Sequence record: KX130863
Reading direction: 5' to 3' (one strand)
Length of the DNA stretch: 64,000 bases
From: Shigella phage SHSML-45
The translations under genes and the position numbers were made by a program. Shown here piece after piece: positions 16,413 through 46,679 of the stretch. The notes below the pieces were generated by a model. It was not told the origin of the DNA. It saw only the letters and a list, made by a program, of their open reading frames with translations, and ran no database searches. Numbering within the stretch: the first letter of the stretch is position 1; each line of letters starts with the position of its first letter.

Positions 16413-17012
16413 TTACTCTTCGTTGTGCTCCTCGGATTGAGGTAACTGAGCTTTATTATATTGCTCAGATCGATATTTTGCCAAGATTTCAGTACGCTTA
16501 TGAATTTCCTTGCTATCTAGATAGATATTTTTGTTGTCTTTTACCATCTCGTCGATTTCATCTATTGAGAAGAACGGATAGTAGACATCTAGCATCATAT
16601 CTTCTACAAACTTGTTGTAAGATTCATAGGCTTTCTTGATTTCTTGACCTTTCTCACAGAACCCGCCAGAGAACGTGTGCCCCATTAGCGTAGCATGTGG
16701 ATGTACTACCCATCCATGACAAGATAGGAAAATTGTGCAGTAAGCAGAAGCACTAGGACCAATCAGGTGTCCTATAACTGTTCCACGGCAATTAGCAATT
16801 AAGTTAGATAACTGTGCAGCAGTATCAACATAACCACCTGGACCATTAATCATCAGATTAATTTCGTCGTCCTCATTTGCCTGCATAAGTACCATTGATA
16901 AATCACGGTATTCATCCGGTGGGCCTAATTCTTCATCAAAGAAAAAGGTATACTCGTTAGATTGGCGAATGGAGTGAAACAGGTTAGTCTTTTCTTCTTT
17001 TTTATTAGTCAT
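16413..17012 (-). CDS. ClpP-like serine protease
   Basis: INGPGGYV..GPSASA segment resembles the ClpP active-site region. Confidence 0.55.
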   Translation of the reverse strand: MTNKKEEKTNLFHSIRQSNEYTFFFDEELGPPDEYRDLSMVLMQANEDDEINLMINGPGGYVDTAAQLSNLIANCRGTVIGHLIGPSASAYCTIFLSCHGWVVHPHATLMGHTFSGGFCEKGQEIKKAYESYNKFVEDMMLDVYYPFFSIDEIDEMVKDNKNIYLDSKEIHKRTEILAKYRSEQYNKAQLPQSEEHNEE

Positions 17013-17024
17013 AGCGATCCTTGA

Positions 17025-17777
17025 TTATCCAACTAGTGGTTCTAGCTCTAAGTCACAGAAGTTATAAACTTCTAGTTTAAGGTTATTGATACCATCGAAT
17101 TTATTAACTAATTCGTGAGTAATATATTTTGCAGGAATACCACTTTCAGATGGATGATCTGATTTAATAGTGAACTTCTGCTCAGCGGGTACTACATTTA
17201 CTATCAAAGAATCCATATCTAAATGGTTTGTTTCTCTGAGTAACTCTCCTTCATTGGGGAATCTAACATCTGTTATTACGGCGACATCTGGGTCGTCTTT
17301 AGCGATGGATTGCTCCAGAATTATGAGCCAAATGCGTTCATGCACCAGCTGCCTTCCTAGCTCTGTCCCTACGAGCTGTAACATTTTTCTCGGAGAAATA
17401 AATAAACTATAAAGACCATCTTCTTTACTCTCTGAGATAAGTTGTTGAGGATTAAGATATTTTTCCTCAAAAATAGGCCAAACGTACGAGAAGTCTTCAA
17501 ACTTATCGATACCATACTTAACCCACACATCTCTAGCTCGCTCCAACTGAGATTGTGTGACCGTAAACCATTGGTCAATTTCTTTTCCCCTGCGCTCTCC
17601 TAGAAACTCTGGAGTTACCCCGAGGATTACGGATGCAAGCTCATAAACTGGTTTAGCAAAACTGTAACGACGGGGTAAACACGTTGGATACGTGTCATTA
17701 CACCAATCGATAATTAATTTTGCAACGGTATCTTTTCCTGCACCTGCCTCGCCATGTAAACCTACTAATACTGACAT
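17025..17777 (-). CDS. deoxynucleoside monophosphate kinase-like P-loop protein
   Basis: Walker A GEAGAGKDT near N-terminus; 250 aa. Confidence 0.6.
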   Translation of the reverse strand: MSVLVGLHGEAGAGKDTVAKLIIDWCNDTYPTCLPRRYSFAKPVYELASVILGVTPEFLGERRGKEIDQWFTVTQSQLERARDVWVKYGIDKFEDFSYVWPIFEEKYLNPQQLISESKEDGLYSLFISPRKMLQLVGTELGRQLVHERIWLIILEQSIAKDDPDVAVITDVRFPNEGELLRETNHLDMDSLIVNVVPAEQKFTIKSDHPSESGIPAKYITHELVNKFDGINNLKLEVYNFCDLELEPLVG

Positions 17778-18130
17778 TAATCTTTCCTATTGTTAATGGG
17801 TGGATAGTAAATTAAGCAACGTTTTTCTTGTAAATCTTGGCGATAAAAGCAAACCATACTAGTCAATCGTGAGATATATGAATATTCTGCCTCGCGGCAT
17901 TTTGCCAACATATTCCAATCTTTATATGGTACGACTACTACTACGCCATCCTCCCCATTTGTAGCTAATTTCTTTTCGAATTTGAAATCAAAGCTACAAG
18001 GTTGAAGTCCTTTAGGCCAGTCCACATGAGCTGTTGGTAGTTCATGGGTAGGTTCTGGCTTTATTTCTTGTGCACAGCCTGTGATTGTGATTGCGGCTGC
18101 GAGCAGTATTCCAAGTTTTATTTTGTGCAT
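17777..18130 (-). CDS. lipoprotein (117 aa)
   Basis: Signal peptide with lipobox ITGC. Confidence 0.55.
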   Translation of the reverse strand: MHKIKLGILLAAAITITGCAQEIKPEPTHELPTAHVDWPKGLQPCSFDFKFEKKLATNGEDGVVVVVPYKDWNMLAKCREAEYSYISRLTSMVCFYRQDLQEKRCLIYYPPINNRKD

Positions 18131-18816
18131 CTACGCACCTCATAATGTGTTTCTATGTATTGTTCCACTTCTACTGGAGAAACATTGAAAAACTCTGTAC
18201 TTCCACTAAACCCCCCATAACTGCATCTTTTATTTTTATAGACACTATGTAGGTCAGCTTCGATCTTAGCTGTTTCTTCCTTAGAACCCTTGCCACAAAT
18301 ATAGTAAGATGATACTCTCAGATCTTTAAAACCACTACAAGACTTAACTTCTAGAAGTCTTTTCTGCACACTCTTACTTATACCTATTTTTATGCCTTTA
18401 TCTGAAACAAATATGTATAAAAATCCTTGTGTATCCCAAGCTGTTTTGGCACAATTTGGGCACCCACTATGGTGTAAAACGTGGTTAGTGGTTGTCTCCC
18501 ACTGATGGGAACATGTATTACATAAAAACTTTAGCTTAGAAGTAGAATTAGTATATTCACTTAGTAATACGATTTTTCTAGGACTGAGGAGTGAGTTAAT
18601 CCTGTCTTTGGTTAACTTTTCATTGCCTGCACATTTTGGGCATCCTCTACCTTTATTTCTGACATTTGTAGGGGCTGTTAACCATGTATTAGAGCATATA
18701 AGACACTTAAATTGTGTCTTTGTCTTATTATGTTCATATTCCCCTACTAATCTTACTGTCCTACCTTGAGCTTCTAAATCTTTATTAAAGATTTCTTTAT
18801 TTATTTTTACGCTCAT
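18118..18816 (-). CDS. zinc-ribbon repeat protein with C-terminal T5orf172/GIY-YIG-like domain
   Basis: Three CxxC..CPxC repeats then a C-terminal domain shared with the 44003..44866 paralog. Confidence 0.6.
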   Translation of the reverse strand: MSVKINKEIFNKDLEAQGRTVRLVGEYEHNKTKTQFKCLICSNTWLTAPTNVRNKGRGCPKCAGNEKLTKDRINSLLSPRKIVLLSEYTNSTSKLKFLCNTCSHQWETTTNHVLHHSGCPNCAKTAWDTQGFLYIFVSDKGIKIGISKSVQKRLLEVKSCSGFKDLRVSSYYICGKGSKEETAKIEADLHSVYKNKRCSYGGFSGSTEFFNVSPVEVEQYIETHYEVRRCTK

Positions 18817-19222
18817 CCCTACAGTACTCCAAGCTACCAGAAAGACATGCTAATCTTTCCTCGAATTCCTTACTCTGCTTTTTAGCAATTAATGTAACCA
18901 ATCCAGGCTTTGCAGCTATAATATCTTGACGACTAAGTGCTTTATCAAGCTGATTAATTTTCTTGTCTAGATCTGCTTGCGAAACATTATTCATTGTGAA
19001 ATACTGATTCATTCGAGTCTCACGAAGTTCACTCTCAGCCCTCACATTATTAAGGGAAGTTTCTAGAGAAGAGATCTTTTTAGTAGCTACTGCAAGATCA
19101 CCTGCTAGAGTCTCAACCTTATTAACTAAGTGATAAGCACCGAATCCGATGCCTATCGCCAAACCAGCTCCCAGGATATACCACTTACCTTGCCATAGAG
19201 AACTAATAAAGTTTTTTATCAT
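18797..19222 (-). CDS. membrane-anchored coiled-coil protein (141 aa)
   Basis: N-terminal TM helix. Confidence 0.5.
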   Translation of the reverse strand: MIKNFISSLWQGKWYILGAGLAIGIGFGAYHLVNKVETLAGDLAVATKKISSLETSLNNVRAESELRETRMNQYFTMNNVSQADLDKKINQLDKALSRQDIIAAKPGLVTLIAKKQSKEFEERLACLSGSLEYCRDERKNK

Positions 19223-19899
19223 CTTTTCATATTCCTGAATGACGTAACCGTATCAAATCCATGTGCTGCTAGGCGGTCTTTATCAGAAATGGTAATAATA
19301 TCTGGTTCTCCTGTTCCAAGTACGCCCCAGATATATTGTTCAATTCTCTGGTGTAATCGGTATAAGTTGCTTTCAACTTCCTGCCACGGAATACCTGATA
19401 GATGTAGGCGTGGGTTAGTTATAACCTTGAAATACTTATTACTATCTTTATCATTTGGAACTACTGAGTCTAGAACCGCTAAAGGTACTCTTAACTCAGC
19501 TAAGGCTTCTTCAGCTTTAGAGGTAACTTCTTCTTGCCAGGATAGAATAGATTCTTTTGGCTTTCCTCTATTTATATCTAGTAGAGAAAATCCCGTTGAC
19601 CATCCATTCTCTTTCAAAACTTCTAATGCTTTGTCTAGGTTGAAAGTTTTTACTTGAGTATCCAATACATCAATATGGTACATCCAGTAAATCTCTCCTG
19701 CTAGGAAAAACGGTAGAATTTTAAAGTAGCCTTTCTTTTCACCAACACGAGCAATCATACGTTCTTGCATAATCATGTAGTTGCCATCATCTGGAGCCTT
19801 TATTGTTAGCTCTTCAGTTTTACGCTCCCAAGCACGATCGGGGTCAAACAAGCTGTTCTGCAAATCGTATACATCTGCCCATTTACTAATAATTCTCAT
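19219..19899 (-). CDS. hypothetical protein (226 aa)
   Basis: ORF. Confidence 0.55.
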   Translation of the reverse strand: MRIISKWADVYDLQNSLFDPDRAWERKTEELTIKAPDDGNYMIMQERMIARVGEKKGYFKILPFFLAGEIYWMYHIDVLDTQVKTFNLDKALEVLKENGWSTGFSLLDINRGKPKESILSWQEEVTSKAEEALAELRVPLAVLDSVVPNDKDSNKYFKVITNPRLHLSGIPWQEVESNLYRLHQRIEQYIWGVLGTGEPDIITISDKDRLAAHGFDTVTSFRNMKR

Positions 19900-19902
19900 A
19901 GT

Positions 19903-20418
19903 TTATCCTCTAAATCCCTCGTAAATAGCAAATTCACCAAAATACTCGAATCTTAACTCATTAGCAGTTTCTACTGCTTCTTTAAGATCACTAAAGATTC
20001 CGCCATAGATTGTTTTTCTATCTTTAGTAACAGAAACTTGCCACTTATTAGCTCTTTTATTCCAACTTACATTTTTGTAACCTGAAGTATTATTAGAGTA
20101 CTTTGACTTATTGGCATTATTCTGTGATTCAGTAGACTCCCTCAAGTTATCCCAAACATTATTTGTTGGGTTAATATCTTTATGGTCTATGTTTTCTGGT
20201 ATATAACCTTTCTTATATAGAAAGGCTAACTGATGAGCATAGTAAGGTTTTCCATCAATTCTTATAGAAATATACCCATTGGATTTTCCACCAGCTAAAC
20301 ATCCAGCATGTCTGGCATTCCATGCATTATCTAACTCTTTTCTGAACTTCCACCTAAAATTTCCAATATGTTCATCATACTCCAGAATACTTTTTAGGTA
20401 TTCTTGTGTTAATTCCAT
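19903..20418 (-). CDS. HNH homing endonuclease
   Basis: AHQLAFLYKKGYIPENIDHKDINPTNN motif. Confidence 0.8.
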   Translation of the reverse strand: MELTQEYLKSILEYDEHIGNFRWKFRKELDNAWNARHAGCLAGGKSNGYISIRIDGKPYYAHQLAFLYKKGYIPENIDHKDINPTNNVWDNLRESTESQNNANKSKYSNNTSGYKNVSWNKRANKWQVSVTKDRKTIYGGIFSDLKEAVETANELRFEYFGEFAIYEGFRG

Positions 20419-39328: not shown

Positions 39329-39366
39329 AAAGAAAAAAGGAGACCCGAAGATCTCCTTGTTTTTAT
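39329..39366. terminator. bidirectional terminator hairpin
   Basis: AGGAGA-loop-TCTCCT stem flanked by A6 and T5 runs. Confidence 0.55.
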
Positions 39367-42300
39367 TATAACTGACAGCCTCCTGATGCACAGCCTACTG
39401 CTTCTTCACCAGCTCCACCACCATTTTCAGTATTAAAATTAGCATAATACCAAGTTTTTATACCATACTTAACAGCGATCATGAAGTCACGAACTACTAC
39501 TGGGCCTGGAATGATTTCATTCTCGAATTTAGAGTAGTCATAATACGACTGGAAGCTTGAAGACTGATTCAGGAACTTCTGGTAAACAGCATTCCACTTA
39601 ATATACTCTACCCTATCAATGTCATAAGCCAGTTTATAGCTCATTAATGTATCCCAATCAGTTGCACCTGGAGCAATTGCAATTACTTTATTCACTGCAC
39701 TACCCTTGATAGATACGATCTTACGGGGCGGTTCGATAGAGTTAGTAACACCTAGCAGTACAGAGGAACTTTCACCTGGCATCTGAGCAGTCAGAACAGA
39801 GTTGCGCATACCATATTTCAGAATATCTGCACGCAGAGATTCCCAATCCATTTCTAGACCTACAGTTACCAGTTCATCAACAGTTTTCTTGTACGTGTCG
39901 ATTACCAGAGTTCCTTGCGAAGGCTTAGTACGATTAAACCAGTCACATGCACCTTGTTCTTTAGCCAGACGTACAGAGGCTTTATGTAGGAAGTAGGACA
40001 GCTTTTCAGCTTCACGGTGAATCCAGTTACGGGCTTCAACACCTTCGTAAGCCAAACCTTCTGCTGCCATTGCACCTGCTGCGTTCATCAGACCAATACC
40101 AACGTTACGACGTTTCTTAGCCGTGTACTCCATAGTTGGGAATGGGTAATCCTGAATCTCGATGATTGTATCAACGAATTTCAGAAGAATGTAGCAAGTT
40201 TTCTCCCATTCAGCCAGAGATTCCATACGACCTAGTACAACACCACCTAAGTTACACAGAGATACTTCACCAATATCTTCTGGACGCATATCGTCTAACT
40301 GATCTTGGGTCTTATACAGCTCCATAATGTGATGGAATGGACGGGTTGGCTGAGTAATTTCAACACAAAGGTTGGTCATACGAATCGGGTCAAGGAAGTT
40401 ACCATGACGGTTAGATTCACCAATGTGATGAGCATACATACGCCCTGTTTCCATACGGATACGTAACCAAGTATCTAGGATTTCTTTTGCAGAGATTCTA
40501 GGAGCTGCTGGAATTGTTTTTCCTTCGTGGTCGATCTTTGTAAGAGAAGCCACACGTTTCTCCGCTGCCACGTAGATTTCTTCAAACTTAGCCTCATCTT
40601 CGCCATAAAACGCTTCATGAACTTCTGGTGCGTAGAAGTATGACATTAGCGTAATATCTTCATTTTTCAGATAACGTTTTAACAAAAGATTGTTGAAGCT
40701 CAGAGAATAATCCATCTTATCGATTTTATTCTCGTCTGTAGCACGTTGTTGCTTAACCTGCATCAACTGGATGATTTCAGGGTCAAAGTAAGGATAGGAT
40801 ACAGTAGCAGAACCACCACGGCTATTACCACAGACTATGGTATGCCCGTTACGGCGCACTACTAACTTATTGGTGGGTACTTCCACACAATAAACTTTAC
40901 CAATATACTCAACTTCAGTTTCCTTGATACCCTCTGCTGTCATATCTAGTTGGTCAAAATAGACATAGCAACGGTCTTTAGTGCTTGTATTTGAGCGTAA
41001 TCCAGCAATTGCTGCTAGAGCCTGCACCACATGTTGTTGCCCTGCGTGGCTTGAGTATTCTCCAACATTTTCGGATTTCCAGTACCCATCCCACTCCATG
41101 ATTTCTTTCAATGCTTCTTTCGCAGCATTAGATGTTAAATCCTTCTCTAGCAGGAAAGATAAGTCTTTCGAATAGTATAGCTGCCCATGCCCAATATGAA
41201 TGGTAGTTACACCTTGTTCATTTAGCTTCTTAGAATATTTAAGACCTAAATCATCTAGGATATGTACTAAACGATCTACCTTGCGTTGCTTTTTAAATCC
41301 GAAACGATACGCTCTACCTGTATTTGTTTCTACGATTGAACCATCAGCCTGCAATGCAATACGGAAGCGGTCTAGCATGGTGATAGTATCAGTACCATTT
41401 GTTTTCTGCGCTGAACCAAAATCTAGTGCATGGGTTCTTTTTGGTTGCCAATCTTCTGCTAGGATTTTCTGATACCCAGGTTTACGTTGGATATTCTTAT
41501 TATTATACGATACTTGACGGTATACCATAGTATGGTTAGGGGTTACTAGAAGATCTACCCCTCTTTTCTCGAAACGTAACATTGTACCTTCGTAATCATA
41601 CTCGAACACATTAAGAGGTAATACCCATTCTAACCCCCTACTATCAGTAATCTGAGCGACTAACTCATCTCCAGTAAGTTCTGAGAATAACTTCCAACCA
41701 TTCTTAGTTAAGACTTCAGTATCCTCGGAGTAGCACTGTTGGGTATTTGCCTTTACTGAGCGGTCAATGTGTCGATAATATGGCAGTTTTCCGGAATGCG
41801 GGAATGCCCCATTTCGCACCGGATCAGCAATTGATCGGCTTTCAAGATGATACCCGATTCCCGCTCTGGCTGCGACCATTTTGAAGACGATGTGCTCGGC
41901 TGTGTCGATTGAATCCAACGTGTCAGTGGAATCCACGAGGCAGCAACTAGCAAATCCACGGTCACTAGAACGCAAACCAACCAGTGGCGGCGTAGGAACG
42001 TTGATTTTGTGGAGCGACATTGCATTGTAGAGATCGATTGCATCTAGAATTGTCCAGTTGGGTTGAGATAACATCGCCATTGCCATGCCCATATAGGCAA
42101 ATTGCGGGGTTTCGTAAATTTCACCAGTGGCTATATTACGACGGGAATATTTATCAAAGAACTGTTTCAGTCCACCACTAGTAAAAAGACGGTCACGATC
42201 GTGGTCTATAACCTGATTCAGAGCTTCAAATTGCTCATCGGTAATCCATGCACTCATGTCTTCCCATGCACCTACACTAACCATATGATCGTGGAAGAAG

Positions 42301-42608
42301 CGTAGAGAAGGTGGTTCGAAGGAATCATAAAGGCGTTTACGCATCTGCGCAAGACGTAATTCCTTTGCTGGCACGTCGTATGCTGGATTATCTTTAATAA
42401 GACTTTCGGCAGCTTTAATTAACGCATCCATCAGAGTATCGGAATCTACAACCCCTTTAGGCAGAGTTTTTTGAGCAGCCATAGTAATGGCTGACCAACT
42501 TACATCAACTGTTTTGCAGCCATACTCTGCCCAACCATTGAGTTTTTCAGGAGCAAAGTCTTCTACAGTACCGTCACGTTTAATTACTTTTTCAATGCGA
42601 TGGCTCAT
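39366..42608 (-). CDS. nrdA: ribonucleotide reductase class Ia large subunit, intein-containing precursor
   Basis: ATP-cone N-terminus, NLCVEI active-site motif, C-terminal Cys pair; ~300-aa insertion with intein blocks; start set to second Met (RBS AAAGGAAAA) rather than track start 42668. Confidence 0.85.
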   Translation of the reverse strand: MSHRIEKVIKRDGTVEDFAPEKLNGWAEYGCKTVDVSWSAITMAAQKTLPKGVVDSDTLMDALIKAAESLIKDNPAYDVPAKELRLAQMRKRLYDSFEPPSLRFFHDHMVSVGAWEDMSAWITDEQFEALNQVIDHDRDRLFTSGGLKQFFDKYSRRNIATGEIYETPQFAYMGMAMAMLSQPNWTILDAIDLYNAMSLHKINVPTPPLVGLRSSDRGFASCCLVDSTDTLDSIDTAEHIVFKMVAARAGIGYHLESRSIADPVRNGAFPHSGKLPYYRHIDRSVKANTQQCYSEDTEVLTKNGWKLFSELTGDELVAQITDSRGLEWVLPLNVFEYDYEGTMLRFEKRGVDLLVTPNHTMVYRQVSYNNKNIQRKPGYQKILAEDWQPKRTHALDFGSAQKTNGTDTITMLDRFRIALQADGSIVETNTGRAYRFGFKKQRKVDRLVHILDDLGLKYSKKLNEQGVTTIHIGHGQLYYSKDLSFLLEKDLTSNAAKEALKEIMEWDGYWKSENVGEYSSHAGQQHVVQALAAIAGLRSNTSTKDRCYVYFDQLDMTAEGIKETEVEYIGKVYCVEVPTNKLVVRRNGHTIVCGNSRGGSATVSYPYFDPEIIQLMQVKQQRATDENKIDKMDYSLSFNNLLLKRYLKNEDITLMSYFYAPEVHEAFYGEDEAKFEEIYVAAEKRVASLTKIDHEGKTIPAAPRISAKEILDTWLRIRMETGRMYAHHIGESNRHGNFLDPIRMTNLCVEITQPTRPFHHIMELYKTQDQLDDMRPEDIGEVSLCNLGGVVLGRMESLAEWEKTCYILLKFVDTIIEIQDYPFPTMEYTAKKRRNVGIGLMNAAGAMAAEGLAYEGVEARNWIHREAEKLSYFLHKASVRLAKEQGACDWFNRTKPSQGTLVIDTYKKTVDELVTVGLEMDWESLRADILKYGMRNSVLTAQMPGESSSVLLGVTNSIEPPRKIVSIKGSAVNKVIAIAPGATDWDTLMSYKLAYDIDRVEYIKWNAVYQKFLNQSSSFQSYYDYSKFENEIIPGPVVVRDFMIAVKYGIKTWYYANFNTENGGGAGEEAVGCASGGCQL
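40824..41735 (-). mobile_element. intein (304 aa) with LAGLIDADG-type homing endonuclease domain inside nrdA
   Basis: Starts CYSEDTEVLTKNG (block A), TPNH (block B), LAGLIDADG-like ALQADGS, ends ..GN followed by Ser; flanks rejoin to conserved R1 sequence. Confidence 0.65.
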
Positions 42609-42950
42609 TTGGTTTTCCTTTTTATAGTTATCAGGATTTAGGAAATAGTTTACTTTATTCTCAGTCATTTGGCAAATAAAATTTCTGATAGAAAAGGCCC
42701 GAGTATTTTCATACCCAGGCCTCCTGTGTTGTCAGTCTAGTTTTTGGCCACTTAAGTTCTCAGCAGAATATCTATTGAGGTACTTAGTTCATTATAATTG
42801 AAGGGCCGATTTGGATTTGAGGTTACAATTTTCCACGCTAGGGTAGTCTTAGGACTTTCTTCCCCTTCCTTACGTGTAATCATATTAGCAGCACTCAGTG
42901 AAGTACGATGTATTTTAGTTTTACGGTGTAGATGTACGACGTTTCCCATA

Positions 42951-43712
42951 TTACACCTTCCCCATGTCTTTAAAAATATCGTAGAATGCTTTAGACTCAG
43001 CAGAACGAACGTTATCAATCAATTCGATCATAGAGAAAGGAGAGTTTTCATACTTCTCATAGACTTCCATAAGAAGTGCTAGACCTGAGTCACCTTTAAT
43101 GTCTTTCTGAGCTATATCCCCGCAGATAATTAAACGGCAGTCTTGTCCTACACGAGTTAGGAGACAAACCATTGCCTCAACGGAAATATTCTGAGCTTCA
43201 TCGACAATTACATAGGAGTTGTTGAAAGTTCTGCCACGAGCATGTTCTATAGCCAAAAATTTAATTTTCTGACGTTCGACATATCCCTTATAGGCATGAT
43301 CACCGATGGCCCATTTCATACCATCAGCTATTGGCTCTAACCAAGGCTCTAGCTTTTCTGCTAGATCACCAGGAAGCATACCAAGAGACTTACCTAGAGG
43401 TTCATTAGGACGTACGAGGATCACTTGCTCAATATCTGAGTGAATGTCTACGAGTTCCTGAGCTGCAAGAACAGACGGGATAAAGGTTTTACCAGTACCC
43501 GGCTCACCGATACCCACAGTCACTGTGTTGTTCTTGATCATATTAATATATGATTTTTGCTCTCGGTTTTTACCTACTAGGGATTTAGCAACTGGGTTAG
43601 CGTAATCATTAGAAAAATCAGCCTGAATTACGTTACTCCCATATTTGTTGCCACGCTTTCTTGAACCATTGCGGTTCTCTCTTTTTTGACGTGCTTTTCC
43701 CATAAATAACAC
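42951..43712 (-). CDS. phoH: PhoH-like ATPase
   Basis: Walker A GEPGTGKT and PhoH-like organisation. Confidence 0.75.
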   Translation of the reverse strand: MLFMGKARQKRENRNGSRKRGNKYGSNVIQADFSNDYANPVAKSLVGKNREQKSYINMIKNNTVTVGIGEPGTGKTFIPSVLAAQELVDIHSDIEQVILVRPNEPLGKSLGMLPGDLAEKLEPWLEPIADGMKWAIGDHAYKGYVERQKIKFLAIEHARGRTFNNSYVIVDEAQNISVEAMVCLLTRVGQDCRLIICGDIAQKDIKGDSGLALLMEVYEKYENSPFSMIELIDNVRSAESKAFYDIFKDMGKV

Positions 43713-43789
43713 TCCTATAGTGTACTTCGCTTCTAACAGAGGATCAACAAAGAGATCTTGTTTATCAACTTACAAATATATTATAACAA

Positions 43790-43818
43790 GGTTTACAGCA
43801 AAAAGCAAGTATAATTTT
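43790..43818 (-). promoter_or_regulatory. sigma70-type early promoter for the minus-strand operon
   Basis: TTGCTT-N17-TATAAT on the minus strand in the divergent intergenic region. Confidence 0.55.
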
Positions 43819-43945
43819 AAATAAACCTATGATATTGCTTTTAAGTAAAAAATTTACTTGCTTATAAAGGTAGAAATATGATACTAGATAATCATTTATT
43901 TATATGCGAAATATTACAGTATTAGATGGCGAAAGAAAATTTTAA

Positions 43946-43974
43946 TTGACATAGTGGATAATGTTTAGTATAAT
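43946..43974 (+). promoter_or_regulatory. sigma70-type promoter (TTGACA-N17-TATAAT) for the plus-strand block
   Basis: Perfect consensus hexamers with 17-nt spacer. Confidence 0.65.
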
Positions 43975-44002
43975 AGGTGTAAAAATTCTGTGGAGAAGTG
44001 GA

Positions 44003-44866
44003 ATGCCGAAAAAATTAACTCAAGAAGAAGTAGATAAATGCCTAGCCGAGCGTGGTTTTACTATGGTGGATAAGCCATATCAAAATTCTAGGTATAGGCA
44101 TACGTATCAGTGTGAATACGGTCACCAATGGACAGCTAAATTTGACGCTATTAGGAATGGAAAGACCAATTGTCCTACTTGCTCTATTAGTAGCCGTAAA
44201 CTAGATATTGATAAAATTAATACTATATTACAGGACAGAGGTATTACATTGTTGAACGGCTATAAAAATAGTGCCGATATAAATACTAAATTTAGGTGTG
44301 TTTGTGGTCATGAGTGGGCTACTACACTTAATAGTATAATTAATAGAGGTAGTGGCTGCCCATCTTGTGCTGCTAATAAACAGAAACTTAGTGTTAATAC
44401 TATAAATGATCGTCTTGCTGCCAGAAATATCAGAATAGTGGGTGAGTATAGTAATGCGAATACTAAGACCGCCTTTCTTTGTGGTGCAGGGCATAGGTGG
44501 GAAGCTACTCCAGGGTCTGTATTAAGGGGGAACGGTTGTCCTTACTGTAGTTATAGAGATTTAGAAAGTACTAGGATATATGTTATGTATAGCCCCTCAC
44601 ATGGGGTTAAAATAGGTAGGTCTAACAATCCAGAGCGTAGACTTCTACATATTAGATCTAGTAGCCACCTTATTGATTTGGAAATAATTAAAGTATTTGA
44701 AATTGGGGAATATAGTAGTGCAGTTCGAATAGAAAAATTAGCCCATAACTACTTTAAAGAGCAGAATTGCCAGTACAAAGATTTTGACGGCGCTACGGAA
44801 TTCTTCAATATTGAACCAAAAGTAGCTATAAAGTTTATCGAGGAAATAATCAATGACAGAGAATGA
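44003..44866 (+). CDS. zinc-ribbon repeat protein with C-terminal T5orf172/GIY-YIG-like domain
   Basis: Four C-x2-C..CP-x-C repeats then IYVMYSPSHGVKIGRSNNPERR-type domain; start at Met with GGAGAAG RBS. Confidence 0.6.
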   Translation: MPKKLTQEEVDKCLAERGFTMVDKPYQNSRYRHTYQCEYGHQWTAKFDAIRNGKTNCPTCSISSRKLDIDKINTILQDRGITLLNGYKNSADINTKFRCVCGHEWATTLNSIINRGSGCPSCAANKQKLSVNTINDRLAARNIRIVGEYSNANTKTAFLCGAGHRWEATPGSVLRGNGCPYCSYRDLESTRIYVMYSPSHGVKIGRSNNPERRLLHIRSSSHLIDLEIIKVFEIGEYSSAVRIEKLAHNYFKEQNCQYKDFDGATEFFNIEPKVAIKFIEEIINDRE

Positions 44867-46679
44867 ATTAATTGAGAATTGCAAAGGTCTGCTCACTCTA
44901 ACTGCGGATAAGGACTTACAGCATAATAATGCTAATAAGCCTAGTGAGATGTTCCATACTCAAAGAGACTTATTGGCCGGAGAAATCAACAAATATTTAG
45001 TATCGCAGGAATTACCCAAACATCTATTAGACGCCCATAATCTAGGTAAGATACACATTCATGATATGGATTACAGGGCGCAGGGGTACACTAACTGTTG
45101 CTTAGTAGACCTTGGTGGCATGCTGAAGAATGGTACTAAAATTGGTAATGCAAATATTGAAACTCCTAAATCCATAACTACTGCATGTGCAATCACTGCT
45201 CAGATTATTGCCCAAGTATCTGGTGCTCAGTATGGTGGCACCTCTATTGATCGTATCGACGAGGTTCTAGCCCCGTATGTCAGAAAGTCTTACAATAAAC
45301 ATCTGGGTCGTGGGCTACGTTGGCTCAAGGATGAAAGAAAAGCTGCTGTGTATGCTACTGAGCTTACTGAAAAAGAGTGTTATGATGCATTCCAAGCTCT
45401 AGAGTATGAAACTAATTCATTATTTAACTCTAATGGGCAGACCCCTTTTGTTACGCATGGCTTTGGATTAGGTCAGGAGTGGGAGGAAAGGATGATTCAG
45501 AAAGCCATCCTCCAAAATCGTATTAAAGGTTTAGGTGCTGCTGAGTCAACCCCTATCTTCCCTAAACTAGTATTCTCAGTTAAAGAAGGGTTAAATAAAA
45601 ATCCAGGCGATCCTAACTACGATATAAAACAGCTAGCACTTGAGTGTTCTGCTACCCGTATGTACCCAGACTATTTAAGCTATGAGAAAGTTGTAGCTGT
45701 TACTGGTGATTTTAAAGCCCCTATGGGTTGTCGTAGCTTTTTATCTGCTATCCCCTCCGGAGAAATTGCAGGGCGCAATAATTTAGGTGTAGTGTCTATT
45801 AATCTACCTATGGTTGCTGCTGAGGCAGATGGGGTTTTTGAAGATTTCTGGGATATTCTGGACAAATATGTGGATGAGGCTTTTGAAGCTCATGATTTTT
45901 TCTTGGATAGACTTAAGAAAGTGAAGGCTAAACAAGCCCCTATTCTTTATATGCACGGTGGTTTTGGTGTGCGTTTAGATGGGGAAGAGTATGTATGGCC
46001 TATTTTTGAGGGTAGATCTTCTGTATCTCTTGGATACATTGGGGTCTATGAGATGTGCCAAATAATGTTTAGTCTACCACAAACCCATAGGGATTGTATT
46101 GAATTTACAGAAGAAGTTCTTACTCACCTAAAAAATCGTTGCGAAGTTAAAGCTAATGAGACTAATCTTGGATTTAGCTTATACGCTACCCCTAGTGAGT
46201 CTCTATGTAATCGTTTTAATAAATTACTAGAACGTAGATTCCCAGAGTATTCTTGGTTAACAGACAAAGGCTATCTTACTAATAGTCACCATTTGGACGT
46301 AAGAGAGAAGGTAGCCCCAGATACTAAATTTGAGTACGAAGCTCATTTTACCAAAATAGCTAATGGTGGTAATATATCGTTTGTGGAATTACCACAAATG
46401 AAAAAATTCCATAAAGCTCTTGAATACGTAGTAGATAAGGGACTAGAGTGTAGCCATTATATCGGTGTTAATATACCGATTGACGAGTGTTTCAACTGTG
46501 GATATATGGGTGAATCTATTGCCTCTGAGCGTGGGTTTGTATGTCCAAGTTGTGGGTCTGAAGAAATAGAGGTTACACGTAGGGTTTGCGGGTACCTGGG
46601 ATCCCCGGGCAGTAGGCCTTTCAATTCTGGGAAACAAAAAGAAGTGCTTGGTAGAGTAAAACACTTAAATCTTAAGTAA
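44853..46679 (+). CDS. nrdD: anaerobic ribonucleoside-triphosphate reductase (class III)
   Basis: C-terminal zinc ribbon CFNCG..CPSCG and glycyl-radical motif RVCGYLG; 608 aa. Confidence 0.85.
   Translation: MTENELIENCKGLLTLTADKDLQHNNANKPSEMFHTQRDLLAGEINKYLVSQELPKHLLDAHNLGKIHIHDMDYRAQGYTNCCLVDLGGMLKNGTKIGNANIETPKSITTACAITAQIIAQVSGAQYGGTSIDRIDEVLAPYVRKSYNKHLGRGLRWLKDERKAAVYATELTEKECYDAFQALEYETNSLFNSNGQTPFVTHGFGLGQEWEERMIQKAILQNRIKGLGAAESTPIFPKLVFSVKEGLNKNPGDPNYDIKQLALECSATRMYPDYLSYEKVVAVTGDFKAPMGCRSFLSAIPSGEIAGRNNLGVVSINLPMVAAEADGVFEDFWDILDKYVDEAFEAHDFFLDRLKKVKAKQAPILYMHGGFGVRLDGEEYVWPIFEGRSSVSLGYIGVYEMCQIMFSLPQTHRDCIEFTEEVLTHLKNRCEVKANETNLGFSLYATPSESLCNRFNKLLERRFPEYSWLTDKGYLTNSHHLDVREKVAPDTKFEYEAHFTKIANGGNISFVELPQMKKFHKALEYVVDKGLECSHYIGVNIPIDECFNCGYMGESIASERGFVCPSCGSEEIEVTRRVCGYLGSPGSRPFNSGKQKEVLGRVKHLNLK

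What the first reader, a model, noticed from the sequence alone, without database searches (positions are those of the whole stretch)
18118..18816. Two divergent paralogs combining zinc-ribbon repeats with a T5orf172/GIY-YIG-like domain
18118-18816 (minus) and 44003-44866 (plus) both carry 3-4 repeats of C-x2-C..R..G.GCP-x-C followed by a C-terminal (I/L)Y(V/I)...(S/D)..(V/I)KIG(R/I)S.. domain ending in TEFF. This resembles a nuclease module with zinc-ribbon DNA-binding repeats, possibly a second homing-endonuclease family distinct from the HNH set.
Basis: inference. Interest (0 to 1): 0.5.

Follow-up and report, generated by a model that had tools for sequence, protein, structure and literature searches.

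The report
Two T5orf172 homing endonuclease genes
The two genes are ordinary members of an already described family of selfish phage nuclease genes (zinc-finger DNA-binding repeats joined to a GIY-YIG-type cutting domain) that come and go among T5-like phages.

Summary
The window is Salmonella phage Shivani, a T5-like phage. ORFs 18118-18816(-) and 44003-44866(+) are paralogs (34% identity, E 2e-43) with N-terminal CapR/DUF4379 zinc-ribbon repeats and a C-terminal T5orf172/MUG113 domain. The repeat count is 2 and 3, not 3-4.

Both genes behave as free-standing homing endonuclease genes:
- About 18 of 447 (gene 1) and 25 of 439 (gene 2) related phage records carry them.
- Deletion relics exist at the gene 2 site.
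- Gene 1's divergence is discordant with that of its flanks.
- dN/dS is 0.07-0.15.
- Gene 2 sits on a sharp mosaic boundary, with phoH about 96% and nrdD about 67% identical to phages that lack it.

This architecture, its abundance in T5-like phages and its association with nrd genes were published by Barth, Dunham and Seed (2023). Database records already label these genes or their orthologs as endonucleases.

The only new points are local details of the insertion sites.

The parts
18118..18816 (-). Gene 1 (Shivani gp046, 232 aa): free-standing T5orf172-type homing endonuclease gene
   Evidence: ORF. Annotated 'endonuclease' in the RefSeq record. Pfam and PHROG 681 hits. dN/dS 0.07-0.14 among orthologs with enough substitutions to estimate it.
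18445..18816 (-). Gene 1 DNA-binding part: two about 60-aa zinc-ribbon repeats (aa 1-64 and 65-124), each with CxxC...CPxC
   Evidence: CapR 8.9e-13 and DUF4379 6.3e-11. Cysteines at 38/41/59/62 and 99/102/119/122.
18121..18444 (-). Gene 1 catalytic part: T5orf172/GIY-YIG-fold domain (aa 125-232) with Y134, K143, G145, R153, E186, H190, E208
18822..18833 (-). Upstream copy of the duplicated target sequence, CTTGGAGTACTG. It encodes the LEYC end of the i-spanin and contains the GGAG upstream of the gene 1 start codon.
   Evidence: Junction comparison with the empty site of phage EC100 and four other carriers.
18104..18118 (-). Downstream copy of the duplicated target sequence, AAACTTGGAATACTG. 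It lies in the signal-peptide region of the o-spanin.
18797..19222 (-). i-spanin gene. Its last 7 codons and its stop codon lie in sequence brought in with gene 1.
   Evidence: The EC100 i-spanin ends ...LEYCSQPQSQSQAVQKK and the Shivani one ends ...LEYCRDERKNK.
17777..18130 (-). o-spanin gene. Its ATG and first 4-5 codons lie in the 3' end of gene 1.
   Evidence: In EC100 the o-spanin reading frame starts at a GTG inside the i-spanin gene (MFNWKLGILL...). In Shivani it starts MHKIKLGILL...
44003..44866 (+). Gene 2 (Shivani gp141, 287 aa): free-standing T5orf172-type homing endonuclease gene
   Evidence: dN/dS 0.12-0.15.
44003..44554 (+). Gene 2 DNA-binding part: three zinc-ribbon repeats (aa 1-62, 63-124, 125-184)
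   Evidence: DUF4379 1.6e-15 with 3 stretches and CapR 2.9e-12. Zinc knuckles. AF2 gives three helix plus beta-sheet units.
44555..44863 (+). Gene 2 catalytic part: T5orf172/GIY-YIG-fold domain with Y193, K203, G205, R213, E244, H248, E266
43946..43974 (+). Perfect sigma-70 consensus promoter (TTGACA, 17 nt, TATAAT) just upstream of gene 2. It is retained in the relic alleles.
   Evidence: 12 of 12 matches. Retained in HildyBeyeler and DT57C. Function is inferred.
44019..44680 (+). Segment of gene 2 missing from the relic allele of phage HildyBeyeler: a 662-bp out-of-frame deletion between short AA(A/T)AATTAA repeats
44853..46679 (+). nrdD, Shivani-type allele. It overlaps the end of gene 2 by 14 nt and is found with gene 2, a diverged same-site gene or a relic in every carrier examined.

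Best explanation
Both genes are free-standing homing endonuclease genes of the T5orf172 branch of the GIY-YIG superfamily.

Inferred mechanism. The N-terminal string of 2 or 3 independently folded zinc-ribbon (CapR/DUF4379) modules reads a long asymmetric DNA site. The C-terminal GIY-YIG-fold domain (Tyr, Lys-x-Gly, Arg, Glu) then cuts DNA nearby. During mixed infection, the cut falls in a related T5-like phage that lacks the gene. That cut is repaired from the carrier genome, which copies the gene and some flanking sequence across.

Gene 1 sits in what is normally the overlap between the i-spanin and o-spanin genes. Gene 2 sits between a strong promoter and nrdD.

Shown here: domain content, fold, conservation of motif residues, patchy distribution, relics, discordant divergence, purifying selection, and site-specific orthogroups. 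Inferred: nuclease activity, the target sites, and the homing event itself.
For: Family and fold:
- Pfam hits to CapR, DUF4379, T5orf172 and MUG113, all above the gathering score.
- PHROG 681 'endonuclease', E 4e-54 and 6e-66.
- Y, K-x-G, R, E...H and G-x-T-E are invariant or nearly so across 19 homologs and present in both paralogs.

Mobility:
- About 18 of about 447 T5-like records carry gene 1 orthologs. 25 of 439 carry an intact gene 2.
- An exactly delimited empty site exists for gene 1.
- Relics of gene 2 occur at two stages of decay, in HildyBeyeler and DT57C.
- Gene 1 is 1.1-1.7% diverged where its spanin flanks are about 8% diverged (p 4e-8 and 3e-11). In another pair it is 12.9% against 6.7% (p 9e-5).
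- Gene 2 lies on a boundary between 93-96% identity on the phoH side and about 67% identity in nrdD.
- Six site-specific orthogroups occur in T5-like phages, 33-45% identical between groups and 90-99% within.

Function retained: dN/dS is 0.07-0.15 in the informative comparisons and every ortholog examined is intact.

Literature:
- T5orf172 homing endonuclease genes with repeated CapR/DUF723 zinc fingers are abundant in T5-like phages and lie near nrd, terminase and replisome genes (PMC10448857).
- CapR binds DNA through its four cysteines (PMC8096241).
- The T5orf172 nuclease Odn cuts DNA in vitro and is inactivated by E180A (PMC8263062).
Against: - No cleavage assay and no mapped target exist for either protein.
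- The second GIY-YIG motif has Lys where canonical enzymes have Tyr.
No solved structure is detectable by sequence for the catalytic domain. The link to GIY-YIG therefore rests on fold and motif positions.
- Foldseek on the full-length model gave only weak E-values, about 0.2.
- A 12-15 bp target duplication at the gene 1 site is not what double-strand-break repair produces. It suggests the first insertion was an illegitimate event.
- Strong purifying selection also fits a co-opted role that benefits the phage.
- Record counts include GenBank/RefSeq duplicates.
Confidence: 0.8

Rival explanations
1. The genes are co-opted nucleases or DNA binders that now serve the phage rather than themselves. 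Possible roles are cutting competing T5-like phages or satellites (as ICP1 Odn does), or repressing a promoter (as the satellite protein CapR does, and as I-TevI does at its own promoter).
For: - dN/dS of 0.07-0.15 shows lasting selection on the proteins.
- Gene 2 lies directly behind a perfect consensus promoter that also drives nrdD.
- Gene 1 supplies the stop of the i-spanin and the start of the o-spanin, so it is built into a lysis operon.
- There is published precedent for both kinds of co-option in this family (PMC8263062, PMC8096241).
Against: - More than 90% of related phages do without either gene.
- Relics show repeated loss.
- The catalytic motif residues are kept, which argues against a pure repressor. 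CapR itself is homologous only to the N-terminal DNA-binding part of these proteins.
- Discordant divergence fits mobility.
- Selfish homing and competitor exclusion are not mutually exclusive.
Confidence: 0.15
2. The genes are inactive leftovers. They are former homing endonuclease genes that have lost cleavage activity and persist only because they overlap essential neighbours.
For: - Both genes overlap their neighbours: gene 1 overlaps the i-spanin by 20 nt and the o-spanin by 13 nt, and gene 2 overlaps nrdD by 14 nt.
- The 3' end of gene 2 is kept even in relics, which shows that position alone can preserve sequence.
Against: - Purifying selection acts over the whole length of both genes, and no ortholog examined has a frameshift or stop.
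- All motif residues are retained.
- Gene 1 copies are nearly identical in diverged backgrounds, which indicates recent transfer.
Confidence: 0.05

Closest known systems
T5orf172 homing endonuclease genes with CapR/DUF723/DUF4379 zinc-finger repeats (ICP1 Gp53, Gp121, Gp130, Gp165, Gp174 and relatives; Barth, Dunham and Seed 2023, PMC10448857)
   Same: They share the two-part architecture of repeated zinc-finger DNA-binding modules followed by a C-terminal T5orf172 domain. They share the variable repeat number, the free-standing position beside nrd, terminase and replisome genes, the enrichment in T5-like phages, and the position at boundaries of genetic exchange (one search compared).
   Different: Nothing differs in kind. 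The two Shivani genes are specific members at specific sites, namely the spanin overlap and the region upstream of nrdD. I did not find those sites described individually in the paper: searches of its text for 'spanin' and 'nrdD' gave no hits.
I-TevI and the Seg proteins of phage T4 (canonical GIY-YIG homing endonucleases)
   Different: The domain order is reversed, with the DNA-binding part N-terminal and the catalytic part C-terminal. The second motif is K-[IV]-G instead of Y-[IV]-G. The DNA-binding part is 2-3 tandem treble-clef repeats rather than zinc finger plus helix plus helix-turn-helix. No sequence-level similarity was detectable.
Odn (ICP1 Gp88), a T5orf172 nuclease directed at the origin of a satellite (PMC8263062)
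   Same: It has the same catalytic domain family. It is the one member with in vitro cleavage and a catalytic Glu mutant. That Glu corresponds by motif position to E208 in gene 1 and E266 in gene 2.
   Different: Odn has a RepA_N-type DNA-binding domain taken from the satellite rather than zinc-ribbon repeats, and it acts as an anti-satellite weapon rather than a homing element.
CapR of the Vibrio cholerae satellite PLE (PMC8096241)
   Same: It is homologous to the zinc-ribbon DNA-binding module (Pfam CapR hits). Its DNA binding depends on the four cysteines.
   Different: CapR acts as a transcriptional repressor and is homologous only to the N-terminal DNA-binding part. The Shivani proteins keep the catalytic domain.

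Membership tests
T5orf172 / GIY-YIG superfamily nuclease domain | Significant match to the T5orf172 (PF10544) or MUG113 (PF13455) profile | tested here: met
   Gene 1: 34.8 and 41.9 bits. Gene 2: 43.2 and 44.0 bits. Cut-offs are 20 and 22.3.
T5orf172 / GIY-YIG superfamily nuclease domain | GIY-YIG fold (beta-beta-alpha-beta-alpha-alpha core) | tested here: met
T5orf172 / GIY-YIG superfamily nuclease domain | Catalytic residues: Tyr of motif 1, Arg after motif 2, and the metal-binding Glu | tested here: met
   Y134/R153/E208 in gene 1 and Y193/R213/E266 in gene 2. Tyr and Glu are invariant and Arg invariant or nearly so in 19 homologs. Their equivalence to I-TevI Y6/R27/E75 is by motif position and by the published alignment for Odn, not by an alignment made here (one search failed).
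T5orf172 / GIY-YIG superfamily nuclease domain | Canonical second motif Y-[IV]-G | tested here: not met
   Both proteins and all 19 aligned homologs have K-[IV]-G. As far as I can judge this is a trait of the T5orf172 branch, so it does not exclude membership of that branch. It does separate the branch from canonical GIY-YIG enzymes.
T5orf172 / GIY-YIG superfamily nuclease domain | Metal-dependent DNA cleavage | not testable with these tools
   Shown only for the relative Odn (PMC8263062).
CapR/DUF4379 zinc-ribbon DNA-binding repeat | Profile match and two zinc knuckles about 20-26 residues apart in each repeat | tested here: met
   CapR and DUF4379 score above cut-off in both proteins. Gene 2 uses His or CxC in its first knuckles.
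CapR/DUF4379 zinc-ribbon DNA-binding repeat | Zinc binding and sequence-specific DNA binding | not testable with these tools
   Shown for CapR by cysteine mutants and gel shifts (PMC8096241).
Free-standing homing endonuclease gene | Presence/absence polymorphism at a fixed site among otherwise similar genomes | tested here: met
   Gene 1: about 18 of about 447 records, with a precise empty site in EC100. Gene 2: 25 of 439 intact, with relics, a different gene or nothing in the others.
Free-standing homing endonuclease gene | Evolutionary history decoupled from the flanking genes (horizontal movement) | tested here: met
   Mismatch density in gene 1 differs from that in its spanin flanks in both directions (p 4e-8, 3e-11 and 9e-5). 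There is a mosaic boundary at gene 2.
Free-standing homing endonuclease gene | Cleavage of the gene-less allele and biased inheritance in mixed infection | not testable with these tools
   This needs cleavage assays and phage crosses.

The most novel reading that the evidence does not exclude
The two genes may be more than passengers.

Gene 1 has rebuilt the spanin pair from an overlapped layout to a separated one. It now supplies the end of the i-spanin and the start of the o-spanin, so only a precise excision can remove it.

Gene 2, together with a second family member that sits downstream of the other nrdD type in Epseptimavirus phages, may maintain a two-allele nrdD polymorphism (about 67% nucleotide identity in genomes otherwise about 95% identical). 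It would do this by cutting the rival allele, so that nrdD travels as cargo of a 'HEG island'. Both proteins would then be kept under selection because they exclude co-infecting relatives.
Probability: 0.2. Interest if true: 0.45.

Novelty: already known. Interest (0 to 1): 0.2.

Why it matters
The finding matters little beyond correct annotation. It confirms that this phage carries, besides its many HNH/AP2 genes, three members of a second and already published homing-endonuclease family.

The family has practical interest. Its tandem zinc-ribbon modules might be a modular DNA-recognition scaffold, and no member from a T5-like phage has a mapped target.

The two sites described here give well-defined substrates for the first such mapping. 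They are the filled and empty spanin junction, and the two nrdD alleles.

Tried and rejected
- A profile search of solved structures by sequence found only DUF4379 zinc-ribbon proteins of trypanosome mitoribosomes. It found nothing for the catalytic domain.
- NCBIfam gave no useful family.
- I first took HildyBeyeler for an empty site of gene 2. It proved to be a deletion relic. EC100 and SSP1 lack any trace of the gene but carry a different nrdD allele.
- I first guessed that the extra tblastn places in Shivani lay in the terminal repeats. The third family member is in fact gp086, between the large terminase and portal genes.
- The dN value for the dNMP kinase of phiR2-01 (0.39) looks like a frame or alignment artefact and was not used.
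- I considered a recent internal duplication as the origin of the third repeat of gene 2 and rejected it. The repeats are only 30-40% identical to one another.

Full report
**Identity of the window.** The window matches Salmonella phage Shivani (KP143763 / NC_028754; Demerecviridae, Tequintavirus) at 100% identity in both regions examined. The two ORFs of the finding are annotated in the RefSeq record as gp046 and gp141, both labelled 'endonuclease'.

**The observation.**
- ORF 18118-18816 on the minus strand encodes 232 aa. ORF 44003-44866 on the plus strand encodes 287 aa.
- The longer reading of the second ORF from 43961 starts inside the -10 element of a perfect sigma-70 consensus promoter at 43946-43974. 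The start at 44003, with a GGAG a few bases upstream, is therefore the likely one.
- The two proteins are 34% identical over 222 residues, E 2e-43. A second alignment shifted by one repeat shows the internal periodicity.
- Both score above Pfam's curated cut-offs for CapR (PF21817), DUF4379 (PF14311), T5orf172 (PF10544) and MUG113 (PF13455). Both match PHROG 681 'endonuclease' at E 4e-54 and 6e-66.
- The first protein has two repeats, each CxxC...CPxC. The second has three, whose first knuckles are C-x3-H, CxC and C-x3-H.
- The repeats are 24-47% identical to each other, so they are old rather than a recent duplication.
Otherwise the description is accurate.

**Fold and catalytic residues.**
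- An AlphaFold2 model of the second protein was built on an alignment of 19 homologs with the same architecture. It has mean pLDDT 85 and a low pTM of 0.42, as expected for domains on flexible linkers. It shows three helix-plus-sheet zinc modules followed by a beta-beta-alpha-beta-alpha-alpha domain.
- A model of the catalytic domain of the first protein alone has pLDDT 92 and pTM 0.84. It gives the same answer: HIGLE 8.0, SLX1 7.3 and 6.8, I-TevI 4.5.
- Across the 19 homologs, the Tyr of the first strand, K-x-G of the second strand, a Glu in the second helix and the G-x-T-E motif are invariant; the Arg at the start of the first helix is invariant in one alignment and nearly so in the other; a nearby His is nearly invariant. 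Both Shivani proteins have the full set.
- The second motif carries Lys where canonical enzymes carry Tyr. This was the only canonical GIY-YIG feature tested and not met.
- Sequence methods did not connect the domain to any solved GIY-YIG structure.

**Gene 1 in its site.**
- Gene 1 lies between the i-spanin and the o-spanin genes.
- In phage EC100, which lacks it, homology to Shivani stops at 18118 and resumes at 18822, with 15 nt of EC100 aligned on both sides.
- In EC100 the o-spanin reading frame begins at a GTG inside the 3' end of the i-spanin gene, so the two genes overlap.
- In Shivani the two are separated by gene 1. The i-spanin now ends seven codons into sequence that came with gene 1 (...LEYCRDERKNK instead of ...LEYCSQPQSQSQAVQKK). 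The o-spanin starts at an ATG inside the 3' end of gene 1 (MHKIK instead of MFNWK).
- The sequence CTTGGA(A/G)TACTG is present on both sides of the insert.
- The same junctions are found in all five carriers examined, from Salmonella, Escherichia and Yersinia phages. This points to a single original insertion.
- A target duplication is not the signature of homing, so the first insertion was probably an illegitimate event. This is an inference.

**Distribution and mobility of gene 1.**
- About 447 phage records match the surrounding region. Only 18 hold a protein at least 80% identical to gene 1. These numbers include duplicate GenBank and RefSeq entries.
- The orthologs are all intact and of equal length. 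dN/dS is 0.07-0.14 in the comparisons with enough substitutions to estimate it.
- The gene's divergence does not follow that of its flanks:

| Comparison with Shivani | Divergence in gene 1 | Divergence in spanin flanks | Fisher p |
|---|---|---|---|
| NR01 | 1.7% | 7.8% | 4e-8 |
| vB_Sen_I1 | 1.1% | 8.3% | 3e-11 |
| IrisVonRoten | 12.9% | 6.7% | 9e-5 |

- The gene has therefore moved between genetic backgrounds independently of its immediate neighbours.

**Gene 2 in its site.**
- Gene 2 follows the consensus promoter and overlaps the start of nrdD by 14 nt.
- 25 of 439 related records hold the intact gene.
- HildyBeyeler has a 662-bp out-of-frame deletion between short AA(A/T)AATTAA repeats. 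The deletion leaves the promoter, the first five codons and the last 62 codons, and that remaining coding sequence encodes the same amino acids as in Shivani.
- DT57C has a larger and further decayed relic.
- NR01 and VAH1 carry, at the same place, a two-repeat family member only 44-45% identical to gene 2.
- SSP1 carries an HNH endonuclease gene there in the opposite orientation, and EC100 carries nothing.
- The gene sits on a sharp boundary. Shivani is 93-96% identical to EC100 and SSP1 on the phoH side up to about 43900, but only about 67% identical in nrdD.
- The Shivani-type nrdD allele is found in only 49 records. Every one I looked at has gene 2, the NR01-type gene, or a relic upstream.
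- dN/dS of gene 2 among four carriers is 0.12-0.15.

**The family in T5-like phages.**
- Members with the same architecture occupy at least five different places:
  - the spanin junction;
  - upstream of nrdD (two diverged orthogroups);
  - downstream of nrdD (mar003J3, KKP_3831);
  - between the D3-region genes and the ligase gene (fp01, smaug);
  - between the large terminase and portal genes (EC100, FGS029, and Shivani's own gp086, outside the window).
- Proteins at the same place and of the same type are 90-99% identical. Proteins of different groups are 33-45% identical. This is the pattern expected for a family of site-specific mobile genes.
- The zinc-ribbon module alone also occurs fused to other nuclease types. 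Related phage genes are annotated as HNH, Vsr-type or 'Hef-like' homing endonucleases. Metagenomic homologs combine it with other Pfam domains.

**Comparison with what is known.**
- Barth, Dunham and Seed (2023, PMC10448857) describe this family. They report T5orf172 homing endonuclease genes whose DNA-binding part consists of one to several CapR, DUF723 or 'DUF4397' (as that paper writes it) zinc-finger domains arranged as 'beads on a string'. They report abundance in T5-like phages, clustering near terminase, ribonucleotide reductase and capsid genes, and positions at boundaries of genetic exchange.
- Netter et al. (2021, PMC8096241) showed that CapR binds DNA and that its four cysteines are required.
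- Barth et al. (2021, PMC8263062) showed in vitro DNA cleavage by the T5orf172 protein Odn and its loss in the E180A mutant.
- Orthologs of the two Shivani genes are labelled in public records as 'putative homing endonuclease', 'homing endonuclease', 'putative GIY-YIG nuclease family protein' and, for the NR01-type gene of VAH1, 'T5orf172 domain protein'.

**What I did not find described.** Three local details did not appear in the paper's text: the insertion into the spanin overlap with a short duplication, the series of relics upstream of nrdD, and the link between gene 2 and one of two nrdD alleles. Searches of the paper for 'spanin' and 'nrdD' returned nothing. These are modest additions.

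**Verdict.** Both genes are members of the T5orf172 branch of the GIY-YIG superfamily and very probably active free-standing homing endonuclease genes. My confidence is 0.8 for that combined statement and higher for family membership alone. Cleavage, targets and biased inheritance remain untested. Interest is low at 0.2.

Noticed in passing
window 44853-46679 (nrdD) compared with L007 and L008: T5-like phages carry two very different nrdD alleles, about 67% identical at nucleotide level, in genomes that are otherwise about 93-96% identical next door. The Shivani type occurs in only 49 records. The other type has a 16-codon longer N-terminus and, in some Epseptimavirus phages, a family member immediately downstream of nrdD.
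   Followed up: partly
window 43946-43974: A perfect 12-of-12 sigma-70 consensus promoter (TTGACA, 17 nt, TATAAT) lies inside the variable segment between phoH and nrdD. It is retained in the relic alleles of HildyBeyeler and DT57C.
   Followed up: partly
window 17000-20000 versus 43000-46000 against NC_028754: The offset between window and Shivani record coordinates is 6605 at the first locus and 6606 at the second. The window and the record therefore differ by one base somewhere between about 20000 and 43000.
   Followed up: no
L015 31744-32418 (Shivani record 102349-103023, outside the window): A third member of the same family, gp086 (224 aa, two zinc-ribbon repeats plus T5orf172, 33-36% identical to the two window genes), lies between the large terminase and portal genes. 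It is 98% identical to the gene at the same place in EC100 and FGS029.
   Followed up: yes
L003 about 1278-1631 (phage EC100): The o-spanin gene of EC100 is not annotated in its record. Its reading frame appears to start at a GTG embedded in the 3' end of the i-spanin gene and encodes a lipoprotein-type signal, MFNWKLGILLAAAITITGC.
   Followed up: partly
window about 19903-20418 and elsewhere; L001, L002, L015: The public annotation lists many HNH or HNH/AP2 homing endonuclease genes scattered through the genome. It also lists an nrdA gene (about window 39366-42608) noted as containing an intein splice site. I did not verify any of these.
   Followed up: no
window about 42752-42949 (minus strand): A 65-aa ORF next to phoH is labelled 'tail length tape measure protein' in the RefSeq records of Shivani, NR01 and DT57C. 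That looks like a propagated misannotation. Other records call it hypothetical.
   Followed up: no
L008 2677-3168 (Shigella phage SSP1): The same phoH-nrdD intergenic site holds an HNH endonuclease gene in the opposite orientation in SSP1; SE20 and SmurfNell likewise have an HNH endonuclease annotated next to phoH. Unrelated nuclease gene families therefore use the same site.
   Followed up: partly
phage collection hits H129, H287, H288: Records named 'Campylobacter phage C13' and 'Listeria phage LM 4-14-1' carry T5-like sequence, including the Shivani-type nrdD at 87-93% identity. This suggests mislabelled or contaminated records.
   Followed up: no
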